The notes under the pieces were generated by a model. It worked only from the letters and a program-made list of their open reading frames with translations, searched no databases and was not told the DNA's origin. From NCBI GenBank assembly GCA_024232295.1, contig JAAEPT010000129.1:3769-67768 (forward strand): DNA of 64,000 nucleotides, read 5' to 3'. Source of the DNA: Cytophagales bacterium. Lineage in GTDB: Bacteria; Bacteroidota; Bacteroidia; Cytophagales; JAAEPT01. The translations under genes were made by a program, and so were the position numbers. Within the stretch, counting starts at the first letter, position 1. Each line of letters begins with the position of its first letter. Of this stretch, positions 14,774 through 18,552 are shown piece by piece.

Positions 14774-15847
14774 ATGAAACACATAATAGGTTTGTGTGTG
14801 CTTTGTTTTCTGACAATAGCATGTACAGATCCTGAGAATGAAACAGTAATAGGTTATCAACTTGAGTATCCTGCTTATTTTCCACAAAAGAATGACATAC
14901 CAGTAGACAATTTGATGCAAGAAGATAAAGTTGAATTGGGTAGAATGCTTTTCTACGAAAAAATGCTTTCTGCTGATTCTAGTCTTTCTTGTGGTTCTTG
15001 TCACCAACAACAATTTGCTTTTAGTGATTCAGCACAGTTTAGCAAAGGAATTGAAGGAAGAAAAGGAGATCGTAACTCTATGGCAATTGTCAATTCATTA
15101 TTTGAAAAAAGCTTCTTTTGGGATGGACGAGCAAATAGCTTGGAAGAACAAGCGTTGGATCCGATCAAAAACCCTTTAGAAATGGATTTATCAATTGAAG
15201 AAGCCATTACGCGTCTCAAAGGAAGTGAAAAATATCAGGAGCTATTCACAAAATCTTTCGGAGAATCAGGAATTACAAGGGACAACCTAGCCAAAGCAAT
15301 TGCTCAATTTGAACGTACATTGATTTCTGGAACATCTCCTTATGACCTTTATAAACAAGGAAAAGGAAGTTTGACAGAACAAGAAAGACGAGGTGAACAA
15401 TTATTCTTCACACACCCTGAACCAAGTGTAGGTCTTAGGGGTGGAAATTGTGGTGATTGCCATAGCGGACCTTTGACAACCAATCGTTTATTTTCTAACA
15501 ATGGACTAGACATAGAAAGTATTGATTTTGGACTTGAAAGAGTAACTGGTTCAGCAAAGGATCGAGGTAAGTTTAAAATTCCTACTTTGAGAAACATAGC
15601 ACTTAGTGCTCCTTATATGCATGATGGTAGGTTTGGGACTTTGAAAGAAGTTCTTGATCACTATAATGAACATATACAACAAACACCAAACTTAGACTTG
15701 CTAATCATTGATGCTACAAATGAAGTAAATGGTACAAGTCTGGAATTAACGGAACAAGAAAAGGAAGATATCATTGCCTTTCTTCATACATTAACAGATA
15801 AAGAATTTATAGAAAATCCTGCATTTGCAGACCCTAACAAAAATTAA
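14774..15847 (+). CDS. Di-heme cytochrome c peroxidase, MbnH/MauG-like lipoprotein (copy 1)
   Basis: Lipobox TIAC; CGSCH and CGDCH; FFWDGRA; FKIPTLRNIALSAPYMHDG. Confidence 0.92.
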   Translation: MKHIIGLCVLCFLTIACTDPENETVIGYQLEYPAYFPQKNDIPVDNLMQEDKVELGRMLFYEKMLSADSSLSCGSCHQQQFAFSDSAQFSKGIEGRKGDRNSMAIVNSLFEKSFFWDGRANSLEEQALDPIKNPLEMDLSIEEAITRLKGSEKYQELFTKSFGESGITRDNLAKAIAQFERTLISGTSPYDLYKQGKGSLTEQERRGEQLFFTHPEPSVGLRGGNCGDCHSGPLTTNRLFSNNGLDIESIDFGLERVTGSAKDRGKFKIPTLRNIALSAPYMHDGRFGTLKEVLDHYNEHIQQTPNLDLLIIDATNEVNGTSLELTEQEKEDIIAFLHTLTDKEFIENPAFADPNKN

Positions 15848-15849
15848 TA

Positions 15850-16560
15850 ATGAAAAAAATAATTAAATATTTCGTAATCGCTTTAGTTAGCATTTTTGCT
15901 CTTACATCTTGTACAGAAGAAGATGTAGTTACAGATGGAACAGTAGTTTTAAAAATTAGTAATGTAGCAGATGATGCTCCACTAGTACTTGACAAAAATT
16001 ATACAAATGCTAATGGTGATCAATTCTCGATCGAAAACATTAAATACTATTTGAGTAATGTAACACTTACCAATGAAGATGGAACAACATATGAAGTACC
16101 AGATAGCTATCACTTAATTGATAACATTTCTGAAGATATTACACTAACTGATATTCCTTTGGGAACATACACTGATATTTCTTTCTCTATTGGTGTAGAT
16201 GCAGTAGCAAATAGCAGTACTGCTCAACCGGGAGATTTAGACCCAAGTAATGAAATGGCTTGGAACTGGGATACAGGATACAAATTCTTCTTGCTTGAAG
16301 GAAGATATATCAGCAAAAGTGATGAAGAAGGTACTTTCACTTTCCACATTGGAAAAAACGCTAATTATAAAACATTGAAATTCACAAAGACAATCACAAT
16401 AGAAGAAAATTCAACTATTGAATACAACTTCGAAGGTGATGTACAAGCTGTATTTAGTGGACCAAACACAATCAACCTAGAGACTACAAATAGTGCTCAT
16501 GGTGAGACTGGTGGTGATATTGCAGATAATTATGCAAGTAATTTCTTTACCTTAAAATAG
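15850..16560 (+). CDS. MbnP-family copper-binding lipoprotein
   Basis: Lipobox LTSC; KYYLSNVTL; FSIGVD; WxW motif EMAWNWDTGYKF; FHIG; flanked by MbnH-like genes. Confidence 0.88.
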   Translation: MKKIIKYFVIALVSIFALTSCTEEDVVTDGTVVLKISNVADDAPLVLDKNYTNANGDQFSIENIKYYLSNVTLTNEDGTTYEVPDSYHLIDNISEDITLTDIPLGTYTDISFSIGVDAVANSSTAQPGDLDPSNEMAWNWDTGYKFFLLEGRYISKSDEEGTFTFHIGKNANYKTLKFTKTITIEENSTIEYNFEGDVQAVFSGPNTINLETTNSAHGETGGDIADNYASNFFTLK

Positions 16561-17540
16561 TGCAAAAGAGATTCTATTATTTGTTAATGATAATATTAGG
16601 ATTTGCTTCTTCTTGTGCAGAGCCAGAAGAAGTAGATCCTAAATTTGTGATTGATGTACCAAGTCACTTAGGAGAAATGCCCGTAAGGGCAGAAAATCCT
16701 CTAACTTTGGGAGGAATTGCATTGGGAAAAAAATTGTTTTTTGACCCTTCTCTTTCTTCAAACAATCAAGTTTCTTGTGCTACCTGTCACCTACCTTCAT
16801 TAGCCTTTTCTGATGGTGTATCTTTATCAGACAAAGGAGTTTCTGGAGAACAAATGATAAGAAATTCTCCAGCTCTCTTCAACTTAGCTTGGCATCAAGG
16901 ATACTTCTGGGAGGGTGGAGCAAATGACCTAGCCTCTCAAGCATTTGGACCTCTCACTCACCCTGATGAGATGGGAAGTAACCTGAATGAAATCCTAGAA
17001 AAACTAAGAGGAAATACTGAATATGTAAATCTATTCAAGGAAAACTTTCCTCAAGGAATTAGTTCACAAAGCTTGGCGTTCGCTTTGGAACAATACCAAT
17101 TAAGCCTTATTTCTGCTGAAAGTCCTTATGATGATTATATTACAGGAAAAAGTATTCTCTCAGAGGAAGAAGTAGAAGGTCTAAAAATATTTACAGAAAA
17201 ATGTGGTAGTTGTCATGAAGGAAATCATTTTTCTGACTTCAAATACCATAGAAATGGAATTGATAGTGTATGGAATTATGCTAGTTTAGAAGATGCAAGA
17301 TGGGGACGTTTTCGTATCACCTTCGACAGCACAGATATTGGAAAATACAAAACACCAAGTCTTAGAAATATTACACTAACAGCTCCTTATATGCATGATG
17401 GTCGCTTTCAAAATTTGGAAGAAGTATTGACTCATTATCAAACACAATTCTCAATAACAGAACAAGAAAAATCAAGAATTATCAAATTCTTAGACACACT
17501 GACCGATGAAAAATTCATTCAAAAACATAGTCAAAATTAG
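16560..17540 (+). CDS. Di-heme cytochrome c peroxidase, MbnH/MauG-like lipoprotein (copy 2)
   Basis: Lipobox ASSC; CATCH and CGSCH; KYKTPSLRNITLTAPYMHDG; GTG start overlapping the upstream TAG. Confidence 0.92.
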   Translation: MQKRFYYLLMIILGFASSCAEPEEVDPKFVIDVPSHLGEMPVRAENPLTLGGIALGKKLFFDPSLSSNNQVSCATCHLPSLAFSDGVSLSDKGVSGEQMIRNSPALFNLAWHQGYFWEGGANDLASQAFGPLTHPDEMGSNLNEILEKLRGNTEYVNLFKENFPQGISSQSLAFALEQYQLSLISAESPYDDYITGKSILSEEEVEGLKIFTEKCGSCHEGNHFSDFKYHRNGIDSVWNYASLEDARWGRFRITFDSTDIGKYKTPSLRNITLTAPYMHDGRFQNLEEVLTHYQTQFSITEQEKSRIIKFLDTLTDEKFIQKHSQN

Positions 17541-18552
17541 TTTTGTTCTTTTGCTTCTTCTAAGTCCTTTGATTAACTGGGCTTGTGATTGTACAATTTA
17601 TGAATACAATAACATCAGAAATAAATCTTATGCTGGTGTTTTTTATCGTTATCGTATGTTCAATGGTTTCAACAACATGAATCATACACCTAGCATTCGC
17701 CCTAGTAATGCAAGAATAGCTCATGCTCCTATTGGAAATGATGACAATACCTACATTAGTTCTCCAGAAAGCTTTGAGCGTTTTCAGACCTATGAATTTA
17801 GATATAATCATAACTACAAAGATAAATTCAACTTCCTAATTAATGTTCCTTACCACATAAATGATAATTATTTTGGGGAAATCATTCCACTCATAGGTAG
17901 TGCTTTTGATAGCTTAGAAACTACGCAAGGGTTGGGAGATATTGTATTAAATGTAGAACGATTATTTACGATTGGAAATGATTCTTCTAGTTGGAATCAC
18001 CGTTTTAAGCTTGGGGTGGGAATTTCTTTACCAACTGGAAAGTTTGAATTGGTAAATGATAAAGGTTGGATTACTGACCCATCTCATCAAGCAGGGCGTG
18101 GAGTAAGTGATATTATGCCAAGTTTACAATATCAAGTAATTTATGACAACCTAATTGGAGCAAGTTCTAATGTACGTTATGCAACCAGTTTACAACAAAA
18201 TAGAGTAACTAGCACAGGAGACCCTATCAATTATCGCTTTGGAAATAGTTTGAGTTGGAATAGTTTATTATTTGTGGTAGTGGGTAGGTATAGTGATTGG
18301 CAATTTATTCCCAAAACAGGGCTTTACTTTGAACATATTACACAAGATAAATTAAACGAAAGTTTGCAGGGAGATACAGGGGGAAATACATTATTCTGGA
18401 ATATCGGAGCTGATTTTGCCTACAAAGACTTCATCTTACAAATGATTTATCAAAGACCAATTAATGAAAACTTGGAAGGTGAGCAACTAAGAAATGCAGG
18501 AAGAATCAACCTAGCATTAATTTATCAGTTTGGGAGTACTTCAAAAGAATAA
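17506..18552 (+). CDS. Outer-membrane beta-barrel / putative transporter
   Basis: Signal peptide followed by ACDC; GLGDI; GISLPTGKF; amphipathic strands ending LALIYQF. Confidence 0.75.
   Translation: MKNSFKNIVKISFVLLLLLSPLINWACDCTIYEYNNIRNKSYAGVFYRYRMFNGFNNMNHTPSIRPSNARIAHAPIGNDDNTYISSPESFERFQTYEFRYNHNYKDKFNFLINVPYHINDNYFGEIIPLIGSAFDSLETTQGLGDIVLNVERLFTIGNDSSSWNHRFKLGVGISLPTGKFELVNDKGWITDPSHQAGRGVSDIMPSLQYQVIYDNLIGASSNVRYATSLQQNRVTSTGDPINYRFGNSLSWNSLLFVVVGRYSDWQFIPKTGLYFEHITQDKLNESLQGDTGGNTLFWNIGADFAYKDFILQMIYQRPINENLEGEQLRNAGRINLALIYQFGSTSKE

What the first reader, a model, noticed from the sequence alone, without database searches (positions are those of the whole stretch)
14774..18552. 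mbnH-mbnP-mbnH-barrel operon without methanobactin biosynthesis genes
Seen: two di-heme peroxidase lipoproteins flank one WxW-containing MbnP lipoprotein, followed by an OM barrel gene, all tightly coupled. Established: MbnH oxidises a Trp of the MbnP WxW motif to kynurenine to create a copper site. No mbnABC and no TonB receptor lie in this operon. Inference: a chalkophore-independent copper capture system in which the second peroxidase may modify a different substrate, such as the barrel protein or the leader.
Basis: partly seen in the sequence, partly recalled or inferred. Interest (0 to 1): 0.6.

Follow-up and report, generated by a model that had tools for sequence, protein, structure and literature searches.

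The report
Copper-type MbnP operon with two haem enzymes
A marine Cytophagales bacterium carries a five-gene envelope operon: a small cysteine-motif leader, two different MbnH-like di-haem enzymes flanking one MbnP-like copper-site lipoprotein, and an outer-membrane channel; it is a lineage-specific variant of a widespread but unstudied Bacteroidota cassette built on a known copper-protein pair.

Summary
At 14774-18552 (+) lie two CCP/MauG-family di-haem lipoproteins (P1, P2), one Pfam-MbnP lipoprotein with an M-x-W-x-W motif, and a 12-strand-type outer-membrane barrel. Gaps or overlaps are 2, 1 and 35 nt. No methanobactin gene or TonB receptor is in the operon.

- **A fifth gene was missed.** A 121-aa membrane-anchored protein (14352-14717) has an invariant CxxxC and a C-terminal PP, and fits the published working definition of CutF-like copper-sensing leaders.
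- **The core cassette is common.** Leader, MbnP, one peroxidase and barrel recur across Bacteroidota. The extra peroxidase P1 is an old, separate MbnH-like lineage found in several Cytophagales families.
- **P1 sometimes has its own MbnP.** This is seen on a Chondrinema plasmid and in locus L034.
- **Neither enzyme looks like a detoxifying CcpA.** Both P1 and P2 carry the MauG-type Tyr where canonical peroxidases have the haem-ligand Met.

"Chalkophore-independent MbnPH" is already known in outline. The idea that P1 has a different substrate is untested, and paralogous-module ancestry explains P1 more simply. This scan has met similar cassettes in about 39 other genomes. I rate it a new variant of a known kind, of moderate interest.

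The parts
14282..14311 (+). Terminator-like hairpin ending the upstream gene; marks the 5' boundary of the operon
   Evidence: 13-pair stem followed by a T-run. The upstream 157-aa gene has no counterpart at related loci.
14352..14717 (+). u121: 121-aa membrane-anchored CutF-like leader protein (N-terminal hydrophobic helix, C42, C52-x3-C56, P118-P119 three residues before the stop)
   Evidence: Conserved at the head of the cassette in 16 related loci. C42, C52, G54, C56, K60, P118 and P119 are invariant. At least 676 unnamed homologue clusters, no Pfam family. Single copy in this genome. Meets the CutF-like criteria of PMC9973294.
14709..14791 (+). Predicted RNA helix pairing the last two codons and stop of u121 (14709-14727) with the P1 start codon and its first five codons (14773-14791)
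   Evidence: MFE -19.2 kcal/mol, z -3.29, 2 of 200 shuffles as stable. 16 stop-region to start-region pairs against 4.6 expected, 1 of 200 shuffles. The same test in relatives gave mixed results.
14774..15847 (+). P1: MbnH-like di-haem lipoprotein of a separate, old lineage (W116, Y297; clade-specific insertion before the second CxxCH)
   Evidence: PF03150. Best solved relative is MbnH 6E1C at 193 bits, aligned end to end. TIGR04039 scores 274 bits, below its cut-off. P1 clade of 14 rows with 99% support. More than 100 clusters at 50% identity or more; every top hit that carries a taxon name is Bacteroidota, mostly Cytophagales.
15850..16560 (+). MbnP-family lipoprotein with M136-A-W138-N-W140 and H166
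   Evidence: PF20243 at 167 bits. The MAWNW stretch is identical to that of the solved MbnP 7L6G. The motif is conserved in nearly all cassette homologues.
16560..17540 (+). P2: MbnH-like di-haem lipoprotein in the conserved cassette position between MbnP and the barrel (W117, Y293)
   Evidence: PF03150. P2 clade of 16 rows with 99% support, sister to the single-cassette enzymes. Y293 aligns with Met275 of CCP 1NML.
17506..18552 (+). Outer-membrane beta-barrel of FapF/COG4313 type, with a near-invariant C27-x-C29 at the mature N-terminus
   Evidence: AlphaFold2 pLDDT 83. Foldseek: FapF 5O67 at E 1e-10, COG4313 channel 4RL8 at E 9e-10. C27 and C29 conserved in at least 90% of 25 homologues. 4 of 25 homologues weakly match PF13557.

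Best explanation
This is a five-gene envelope operon: leader u121, P1, MbnP, P2 and a barrel. It is a Cytophagales variant of a widespread Bacteroidota cassette made of a CutF-like Cys-motif leader, an MbnP-like lipoprotein, an MbnH-like di-haem enzyme and a FapF/COG4313-type outer-membrane channel.

Proposed working, all inferred by homology unless marked otherwise:
1. The MbnH-like enzymes use H2O2 to reach a high-valent di-haem state. They then oxidise a Trp of the MbnP M-x-W-x-W motif to kynurenine, which creates a copper site.
2. The barrel, which carries a CxC motif, passes copper or a small copper complex across the outer membrane in place of a TonB-dependent receptor.
3. The leader is exported co-translationally and senses periplasmic copper through its CxxxC motif. 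A ribosome pausing at the C-terminal PP then opens an RNA helix that otherwise buries the P1 start codon.
4. P1 is not a recent copy of P2. It is an old, separate MbnH-like lineage that in related genomes sits beside its own MbnP copy. Here that copy is absent, so P1 and P2 most likely both serve the single MbnP, possibly at different residues or under different conditions.

Shown directly: gene content, conservation, fold, residue identities and phylogeny.
For: - **Domains and motifs:**
- **P1 and MbnH:** P1 aligns end to end with solved MbnH 6E1C.
- **Axial ligand:** P1 Y297 and P2 Y293 sit at the position of Met275, the E-haem ligand of canonical CCP 1NML. MauG, a genuine MbnH from a Methylocystis mbn operon and all cassette enzymes have Tyr there. 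This genome's C142 enzyme and E. coli YhjA have Met.
- **First tree:** the P1 clade (99), P2 clade (99) and single-cassette clade (99) group with the genuine MbnH and the Deinococcus MbnP partner at 89% support. MauG, YhjA and three other CCPs of this genome fall outside.
- **Core cassette:** leader, MbnP, peroxidase and barrel recur in other Cytophagales families and other Bacteroidota classes.
- **Exact five-gene order:** found in three Echinicola species and in Algoriphagus zhangzhouensis.
- **P1 with its own MbnP:** seen on Chondrinema plasmid NZ_CP111054 and in L034.
- **Barrel fold:**
- **Leader:** invariant CxxxC and PP, which match the published CutF-like criteria.
- **RNA helix:** covers the P1 start, z -3.29 and 1 of 200 shuffles.
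- **Copper link for this MbnP type:** in D. radiodurans an MbnP and CCP pair lies beside CopC and CopD.
Against: - No experiment exists for any Bacteroidota member.
- P1 and P2 score below the NCBIfam MbnH cut-off (274 and 227 against 363 bits). MbnP scores far below the TIGR04052 cut-off (53 against 140).
- In the larger tree the P1 clade sits in an unresolved polytomy with MbnH and MauG.
- The MbnP tree is unresolved, so it cannot show which MbnP copy was lost.
- The stop-to-start RNA helix is individually significant in only 2-3 of 16 related loci. The leader has no Pfam DUF2946 match.
- In four related loci P1 lies upstream of the leader, so the leader cannot control it there.
- The window MbnP lacks the C-terminal HH motif that most homologues carry.
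- The direction of transport and the sign of regulation are unknown. The metal is inferred, not shown.
Confidence: 0.55

Rival explanations
1. One reading: P1 has a substrate other than MbnP. Candidates are the Cys-bearing N-terminus of the barrel, the leader protein, or a second residue or modification type. The operon would then encode a two-enzyme maturation pathway.
For: - A ratio of two peroxidases to one MbnP is conserved in at least three Cytophagales families.
- P1 always neighbours the leader, on either side of it.
- P1 is more conserved than P2, with mean pairwise identity 0.52 against 0.45. It also carries a clade-specific insertion (T-H-P...R-G-G-N) directly before the E-haem CxxCH.
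- P1 is kept even in arrangements where no MbnP directly follows it.
Against: - In Chondrinema and L034, P1 is directly followed by its own MbnP.
- Elsewhere in Bacteroidota the peroxidase to MbnP ratio is 1:1 or 2:2.
- The leader lacks a conserved Trp, and by analogy with CutF it would be short-lived.
- The barrel N-terminus is modelled with low confidence.
Confidence: 0.2
2. One or both enzymes are ordinary periplasmic H2O2-detoxifying cytochrome c peroxidases (CcpA-like) that merely sit beside MbnP.
For: P2 scores as well against canonical CCP structures as against MbnH: 1NML 163 bits against 6E1C 159 bits.
Against: - Both have Tyr, not Met, at the E-haem ligand position.
- Both group with MbnP-partner enzymes and away from the genome's Met-type CCP on contig C142.
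- Their genes overlap or abut mbnP, and this gene order is conserved.
Confidence: 0.05
3. The cassette is not about copper. The leader and barrel handle another metal or a small organic molecule, and the MbnP-like protein carries an oxidised Trp or other cofactor for a different purpose.
For: - Leader-plus-barrel pairs occur without MbnP or a peroxidase in six sampled Bacteroidota genomes.
- COG4313 and FapF relatives transport hydrophobic molecules or peptides (titles).
- The authors of PMC9973294 state that CutF-like proteins are not all copper-specific.
- The window MbnP lacks the terminal HH motif.
Against: - The M-x-W-x-W motif and a conserved His are retained.
- CxxxC and CxC motifs are typical Cu(I) ligand sets (general knowledge).
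- The Deinococcus pair lies beside CopC and CopD.
Confidence: 0.15

Closest known systems
MbnP/MbnH of methanobactin operons (Methylosinus trichosporium OB3b, PDB 7L6G and 6E1C; Methylocystis parvus OBBP plasmid pMpar-2)
   Same: - An MbnP-family protein with the M-A-W-N-W stretch sits next to a MauG-like di-haem enzyme.
- P1 aligns over the full length of 6E1C, including the C-terminal tail.
- The E-haem ligand position holds Tyr.
- The pair is already known to occur far beyond methanobactin producers (PMC3621798).
   Different: - There is no mbnABC and no TonB-dependent MbnT. A small FapF/COG4313-type barrel is present instead.
- There are two enzymes of different lineages for one MbnP.
- All three proteins have lipoboxes.
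- Scores fall below the TIGR04039 and TIGR04052 cut-offs.
- A CutF-like leader heads the operon.
MauG (tryptophan tryptophylquinone maturation enzyme)
   Same: Di-haem fold, inter-haem Trp, Tyr at the E-haem ligand position, and a presumed protein substrate.
   Different: - No methylamine dehydrogenase genes are present.
- TIGR03791 scores are 186 and 179 bits against a cut-off of 444.
- MauG lies outside the cassette clade in the first tree.
CutF of Rhodobacter capsulatus and CutF-like / DUF2946 leaders (PMC9973294; bioRxiv 10.1101/2025.02.05.636593)
   Same: - Under 150 aa, with an N-terminal export or anchor segment, a CxxxC motif and PP within the last 15 residues.
- The downstream gene is on the same strand after a short spacer.
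- In this window a helix buries the downstream start and begins exactly where a ribosome paused at PP would sit.
   Different: - No Pfam DUF2946 match.
- The downstream genes are MbnH/MbnP-type, not a multicopper oxidase.
- Bacteroidota generally lack Shine-Dalgarno-led initiation (my own knowledge).
- The RNA feature is not consistently recovered in relatives.
COG4313 outer-membrane channel (Pseudomonas putida, PDB 4RL8) and FapF (PDB 5O65, 5O67)
   Same: Predicted barrel fold: Foldseek E 1e-9 to 1e-10, TM-score 0.57-0.72. A few homologues weakly match PF13557.
   Different: About 14% sequence identity. The conserved N-terminal CxC motif, the genomic partners and the cargo all differ or are unknown.
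Single-peroxidase Bacteroidota cassette (leader, MbnP, MbnH-like enzyme, barrel), seen here in many genomes and earlier in this scan
   Same: The same four families in the same order, with the same motifs.
   Different: The window adds P1, a third MbnH-like lineage. Its in-cassette enzyme is the P2 type rather than the common S type, which this genome carries at a second locus on contig C66.

Membership tests
MbnH family di-haem enzyme (TIGR04039) | Score at or above the curated NCBIfam cut-off (362.85 bits) | tested here: not met
   P1 scores 273.7 bits and P2 226.7 bits. TIGR04039 is the best NCBIfam model for both.
MbnH family di-haem enzyme (TIGR04039) | Two CxxCH haem motifs, an inter-haem Trp, and Tyr rather than Met at the E-haem axial position (MauG type) | tested here: met
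   P1: C73/C76/H77, C226/C229/H230, W116, Y297. P2: C73/C76/H77, C215/C218/H219, W117, Y293. Y293 aligns with Met275 of 1NML.
MbnH family di-haem enzyme (TIGR04039) | Gene adjacent to an mbnP gene | tested here: met
   P1 ends 2 nt before mbnP, and P2 overlaps its stop by 1 nt.
MbnH family di-haem enzyme (TIGR04039) | Forms one clade with a genuine MbnH, excluding MauG and canonical CCPs | tested here: inconclusive
   The 45-row tree gives 89% SH-aLRT for a clade that excludes MauG. The 63-row tree leaves a polytomy that includes MauG, though Met-type CCPs stay outside.
MbnH family di-haem enzyme (TIGR04039) | Converts an MbnP Trp to kynurenine through a bis-Fe(IV) state | not testable with these tools
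   Needs biochemistry.
MbnP (Pfam PF20243; NCBIfam TIGR04052) | Pfam gathering score | tested here: met
   166.7 bits against a cut-off of 27, covering profile positions 2-185 of 189.
MbnP (Pfam PF20243; NCBIfam TIGR04052) | NCBIfam equivalog cut-off (140 bits) | tested here: not met
   53.1 bits. This is a distant subfamily.
MbnP (Pfam PF20243; NCBIfam TIGR04052) | Conserved WxW motif holding the Trp that becomes kynurenine | tested here: met
   M136-A-W138-N-W140 aligns with MAWNW of 7L6G. The motif is conserved in cassette homologues. The role of WxW is taken from PMC11951088.
MbnP (Pfam PF20243; NCBIfam TIGR04052) | Copper binding | not testable with these tools
   Needs purified protein.
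CutF-like leader (DUF2946-related; criteria of PMC9973294) | [quoted passage not shown] | tested here: met
   121 aa, hydrophobic residues 10-29, C52-x3-C56, P118-P119, and a 56-nt spacer.
CutF-like leader (DUF2946-related; criteria of PMC9973294) | Match to a Pfam DUF2946-type model | tested here: not met
   No such hit at E up to 10 for any of 17 members. There are only language-model neighbours at 0.89-0.90.
CutF-like leader (DUF2946-related; criteria of PMC9973294) | RNA stem that shields the downstream initiation site and overlaps the footprint of a stalled ribosome | tested here: inconclusive
   The window passes: z -3.29, and 16 pairs against 4.6 expected. Among relatives, 8 of 16 loci have at least 6 such pairs, but only 2-3 are individually unusual.
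COG4313 / Phenol_MetA_deg (PF13557) outer-membrane channel | Pfam match | tested here: not met
   The window protein has no hit. 4 of 25 homologues match weakly, best E 1.2e-4.
COG4313 / Phenol_MetA_deg (PF13557) outer-membrane channel | Fold similarity to solved members | tested here: met
   Foldseek: 4RL8 at E 9e-10 (TMt 0.72); FapF 5O67 at E 1e-10.
Canonical bacterial cytochrome c peroxidase (CcpA type) | His/Met-ligated electron-transfer haem (Met275 in Pseudomonas numbering) | tested here: not met
   Both P1 and P2 have Tyr at that column. The genome's own Met-type enzyme is on contig C142.
Methanobactin (Mbn) operon | Presence of mbnB/mbnC and a TonB-dependent MbnT | tested here: not met
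   TIGR04159 has no hit in the 95%-complete genome. No TonB receptor is among the operon genes. mbnA is too short to search for.

The most novel reading that the evidence does not exclude
P1 and P2 could be non-redundant enzymes that install two different oxidative modifications. One version has one enzyme act on each Trp of the MbnP WxW motif. Another has one act on MbnP and the other on the CxC-bearing N-terminus of the barrel. Either way, a leader-controlled two-enzyme pathway would build a TonB-independent copper relay from a lipoprotein to an outer-membrane channel. No such route has been described for any bacterium.
Probability: 0.2. Interest if true: 0.7.

Novelty: new variant of a known kind. 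Interest (0 to 1): 0.45.

Why it matters
MbnP/MbnH is the only system in which an enzyme is known to make a kynurenine copper site. Its physiological role outside methanotrophs is still open.

This operon joins that pair to a defined outer-membrane channel and to a candidate copper-sensing leader, in cultivable genera such as Echinicola and Algoriphagus. That gives a tractable setting for three questions:
- What are non-methanobactin MbnPH modules for?
- How does copper cross the Bacteroidota outer membrane without a TonB receptor?
- Why do some lineages keep two or three MbnH-like paralogues?

If the two enzymes prove non-redundant, the known chemistry of MauG-type enzymes would widen.

Tried and rejected
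- **Single-sequence AlphaFold2 of the barrel.** It failed (pLDDT 33) and cost one of two jobs. The alignment-based run worked.
- **The look-up of encoding contigs.** Contexts came from the genome search, the fetch from genomes, the search for related loci and PLSDB instead.
- **Key papers not held.** Kenney 2019 JBC, Manesis 2021 PNAS, Manesis 2023 Biochemistry and Kenney 2018 JBC were unavailable. Their content is cited only through PMC11951088, PMC3621798 and PMC11892367, or marked as my own recollection.
- **The search for related loci with the 25-row barrel alignment.** It had no stretch conserved enough. An 8-row alignment worked.
- **MbnP tree to decide which MbnP copy the window kept.** It was unresolved. 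The window protein is nearest to the P1-linked copy of Chondrinema (40% identity, 166 against 134 bits), but without branch support.
- **NCBIfam and Pfam scans of the leader family.** Only chance-level hits appeared. These included two weak matches to the quinohaemoprotein amine dehydrogenase gamma subunit (E 0.004), which I do not trust.
- **Upstream 157-aa gene (13798-14271) as part of the unit.** Rejected: a terminator follows it, and it is absent from related loci.
- **Literature search linking MbnP to Bacteroidota.** Nothing was found in the held library.

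
Full report
**What is in the sequence**

The region is about 33% G+C. Between 14352 and 18552 on the + strand lie five genes.

| Gene | Coordinates | Size |
|---|---|---|
| u121 | 14352-14717 | 121 aa |
| P1 | 14774-15847 | 357 aa |
| MbnP | 15850-16560 | 236 aa |
| P2 | 16560-17540 (GTG start) | 326 aa |
| barrel | 17506-18552 | 348 aa |

The last four are joined by a 2-nt gap, a 1-nt overlap and a 35-nt overlap. A terminator-like hairpin at 14282-14311 closes the preceding gene. No + strand terminator-like site lies inside the unit. 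A convergent gene overlaps the barrel's 3' end.

P1 and P2 both match Pfam CCP_MauG (E 1e-57 and 4e-54). MbnP matches Pfam MbnP at 167 bits against a cut-off of 27. The barrel and u121 match no Pfam family. All three soluble proteins have a lipobox Cys (C17, C21, C19); this is read from the sequence, not from a predictor. The one correction is that the unit has a fifth gene at its head.

**The two haem enzymes**

The best NCBIfam model for both is the MbnH family, TIGR04039. P1 scores 274 bits and P2 227 bits, both below the 363-bit cut-off. MauG (TIGR03791) scores 186 and 179 bits.

Among solved structures, P1 is closest to MbnH 6E1C at 193 bits, against 159 bits or less for canonical peroxidases. 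The alignment runs end to end, including the C-terminal tail. P2 scores about equally against a canonical peroxidase (1NML, 163 bits) and 6E1C (159 bits).

One residue separates the types. P2 Tyr293 aligns with Met275 of 1NML. From my own knowledge, Met275 is the axial ligand of the electron-transfer haem in canonical enzymes, and MauG has Tyr294 there. PMC11892367 confirms that canonical enzymes have Met-His coordination at that haem.

In a 16-sequence alignment the column splits as follows:
- **Tyr:** P1 (Y297), P2, every cassette enzyme, a genuine MbnH from the Methylocystis parvus mbn operon, and a Methylobacterium MauG.
- **Met:** this genome's contig-C142 enzyme and E. coli YhjA.

The genome has six CCP_MauG genes, and C142 is its one Met-type candidate for a detoxifying peroxidase.

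**Phylogeny**

P1 and P2 are 36% identical. In a 45-row tree there are three strongly supported clades:
- P1 forms a 14-row clade (99% SH-aLRT).
- P2 forms a 16-row clade (99%).
- The single enzymes of other families' cassettes form an 8-row "S" clade (99%). It is sister to P2 (80%) and contains this genome's second MbnP partner on contig C66.

All three clades join the genuine MbnH and the Deinococcus MbnP partner at 89%. MauG, YhjA and three other CCPs of this genome fall outside.

With 18 more Bacteroidota enzymes added, P2 plus S stays a clade (95%). One genome (L073) carries both a P2-type and an S-type enzyme. The P1 clade then sits in an unresolved polytomy with MbnH and MauG, still apart from the Met-type enzymes.

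So P1, P2 and S are three old MbnH-like lineages, and this genome has all three. P1 is the most conserved of the two in the window (mean pairwise identity 0.52 against 0.45 for P2). It also carries a clade-specific insertion just before the second CxxCH. P1 orthologues at 50% identity or more number over a hundred clusters. Named examples include Echinicola, Rufibacter, Flexithrix and Microscillaceae, all annotated only as "cytochrome-c peroxidase" or "MauG".

**Gene neighbourhoods**

The organism is a Cytophagales bacterium; the nearest named relatives of the locus are Cytophagales MAGs, Echinicola and Algoriphagus. Four arrangements were found.

| Arrangement | Where seen |
|---|---|
| u121, P1, MbnP, P2, barrel (as in the window) | two MAGs of the same family, three Echinicola species, Algoriphagus zhangzhouensis |
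| P1, u121, MbnP, P2, barrel | four family members |
| u121, P1, MbnP, u121, MbnP, P2, barrel | Chondrinema litorale plasmid NZ_CP111054; L034 is similar |
| u121, MbnP, one peroxidase, barrel | seven other Cytophagales families and 19 of 40 barrel-centred loci from a phylum-wide sample |

Within that phylum-wide sample of 40 loci, two have two MbnPs with two peroxidases, and six have only u121 plus the barrel.

The usual peroxidase to MbnP ratio is therefore 1:1 or 2:2. The window's 2:1 ratio is confined to Cytophagales. The simplest reading is that P1 belonged to a second MbnP/MbnH module joined to the core cassette, and that this module's MbnP is absent here. The MbnP tree could not confirm which copy survives.

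**MbnP**

The M136-A-W138-N-W140 stretch is identical to MAWNW of the solved MbnP 7L6G. It is kept in nearly all cassette homologues, as is His166. According to PMC11951088, the copper site of MbnP uses His, Met, water and a kynurenine made from a Trp of the conserved WxW motif, and MbnH is the enzyme assigned to that step.

The window protein scores far below the NCBIfam equivalog cut-off (53 against 140 bits). It also lacks a C-terminal HH motif present in most homologues. It is a distant subfamily member.

An independent copper link for this subfamily comes from D. radiodurans, where an MbnP and CCP pair lies beside CopC and CopD.

**Barrel**

With a 25-sequence alignment, AlphaFold2 gives a confident barrel (pLDDT 83, pTM 0.79). 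Foldseek places it nearest to FapF (E 1e-10) and the COG4313 channel 4RL8 (E 9e-10, TM-score up to 0.72). Four homologues weakly match PF13557.

C27 and C29, right after the signal peptide, are conserved in at least 90% of homologues. The profile finds matches in 80 of 301 sampled Bacteroidota genomes.

**Leader**

u121 has a hydrophobic N-terminal segment. C42, C52, G54, C56, K60 and P118-P119 are invariant, and PP lies 1-6 residues from the stop in all 17 members. It is single-copy here. It has at least 676 homologue clusters, all unnamed.

It meets every criterion used by Ozturk and co-workers to define CutF-like proteins. They report that such proteins are abundant in Bacteroidota and that most with Cys-rich motifs lie upstream of copper-homeostasis genes (PMC9973294). 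MbnP and peroxidases are not mentioned in that paper.

In the window, the predicted RNA fold pairs 14709-14727 with 14773-14791:
- The first strand is the two codons after PP, the stop codon and ten more bases.
- The second strand is the P1 start codon and its first five codons.
- The fold has z -3.29.
- It forms 16 stop-to-start pairs against 4.6 expected, matched by 1 of 200 shuffles.

A ribosome paused on PP would cover the 5' strand. Across 16 related junctions the same test gave 87 pairs against 61.5 expected, and only two or three loci stood out individually. The RNA part of the model is therefore suggestive rather than established. Whether copper would switch the operon on or off cannot be read from sequence.

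**Verdict**

The operon is real and well conserved. Its parts fit a leader-controlled copper-handling module built on the known MbnP/MbnH chemistry, with a small barrel in place of a TonB receptor. That MbnPH pairs exist without methanobactin genes was already published (PMC3621798). This scan has also noted similar Bacteroidota cassettes in about 39 other genomes.

What is particular here is the conserved pairing of two anciently diverged MbnH-like enzymes with a single MbnP. I found no literature on that in the held library.

Noticed in passing
L009:7315-10379 (own genome, contig C66): A second MbnP locus in the same genome. A YHYH-domain protein with a type-9 secretion C-terminal tag is followed by MbnP (101 bits) and an S-type MbnH-like enzyme, with no leader and no barrel.
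   Followed up: partly
L062, L070, L076, L077, L094, L097: In six sampled Bacteroidota genomes the u121-type leader sits directly before the barrel, with no MbnP or peroxidase nearby. Leader plus barrel may therefore be the true core, with MbnP/MbnH as an add-on.
   Followed up: no
window 16540-16560: The window MbnP ends without the C-terminal H-H-x-x-N motif found in most cassette homologues. That motif may be a second metal site.
   Followed up: no
window 17430-17540: P2 lacks about 22 residues after Tyr293 that P1 and most P2-clade members in the alignment have. The P2/barrel overlap is 35 nt here, against 4 nt in L025, L026 and L031.
   Followed up: no
window 15910-15930 and homologues: The residues after the lipobox Cys of MbnP homologues are K/D/E-rich (for example C-K-K-D-D-E). 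From my own knowledge this resembles the Bacteroidota lipoprotein surface-export signal, so MbnP might be displayed on the cell surface.
   Followed up: no
window 14340-14347: A TAnnTTTG box (the Bacteroidota -7 promoter element, from my own knowledge) ends 4 nt before the u121 ATG. This hints at a leaderless or nearly leaderless transcript. No clear -33 TTTG was seen.
   Followed up: no
L043 (genome G001, contig C31): In one family member the cassette looks decayed. P1, P2 and the barrel are each split into two or three open frames.
   Followed up: no
L053:3980-5140: In the PLSDB gene table for Methylocystis parvus OBBP plasmid pMpar-2, the di-haem gene after mbnP is labelled 'methanobactin export MATE transporter MbnM'. 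The same label recurs on other plasmids. By position and sequence it is MbnH.
   Followed up: partly
window 13798-14271: A 157-aa exported, Cys-containing protein with no Pfam or NCBIfam match and no counterpart at related loci lies just upstream and is separated from the operon by a terminator.
   Followed up: no
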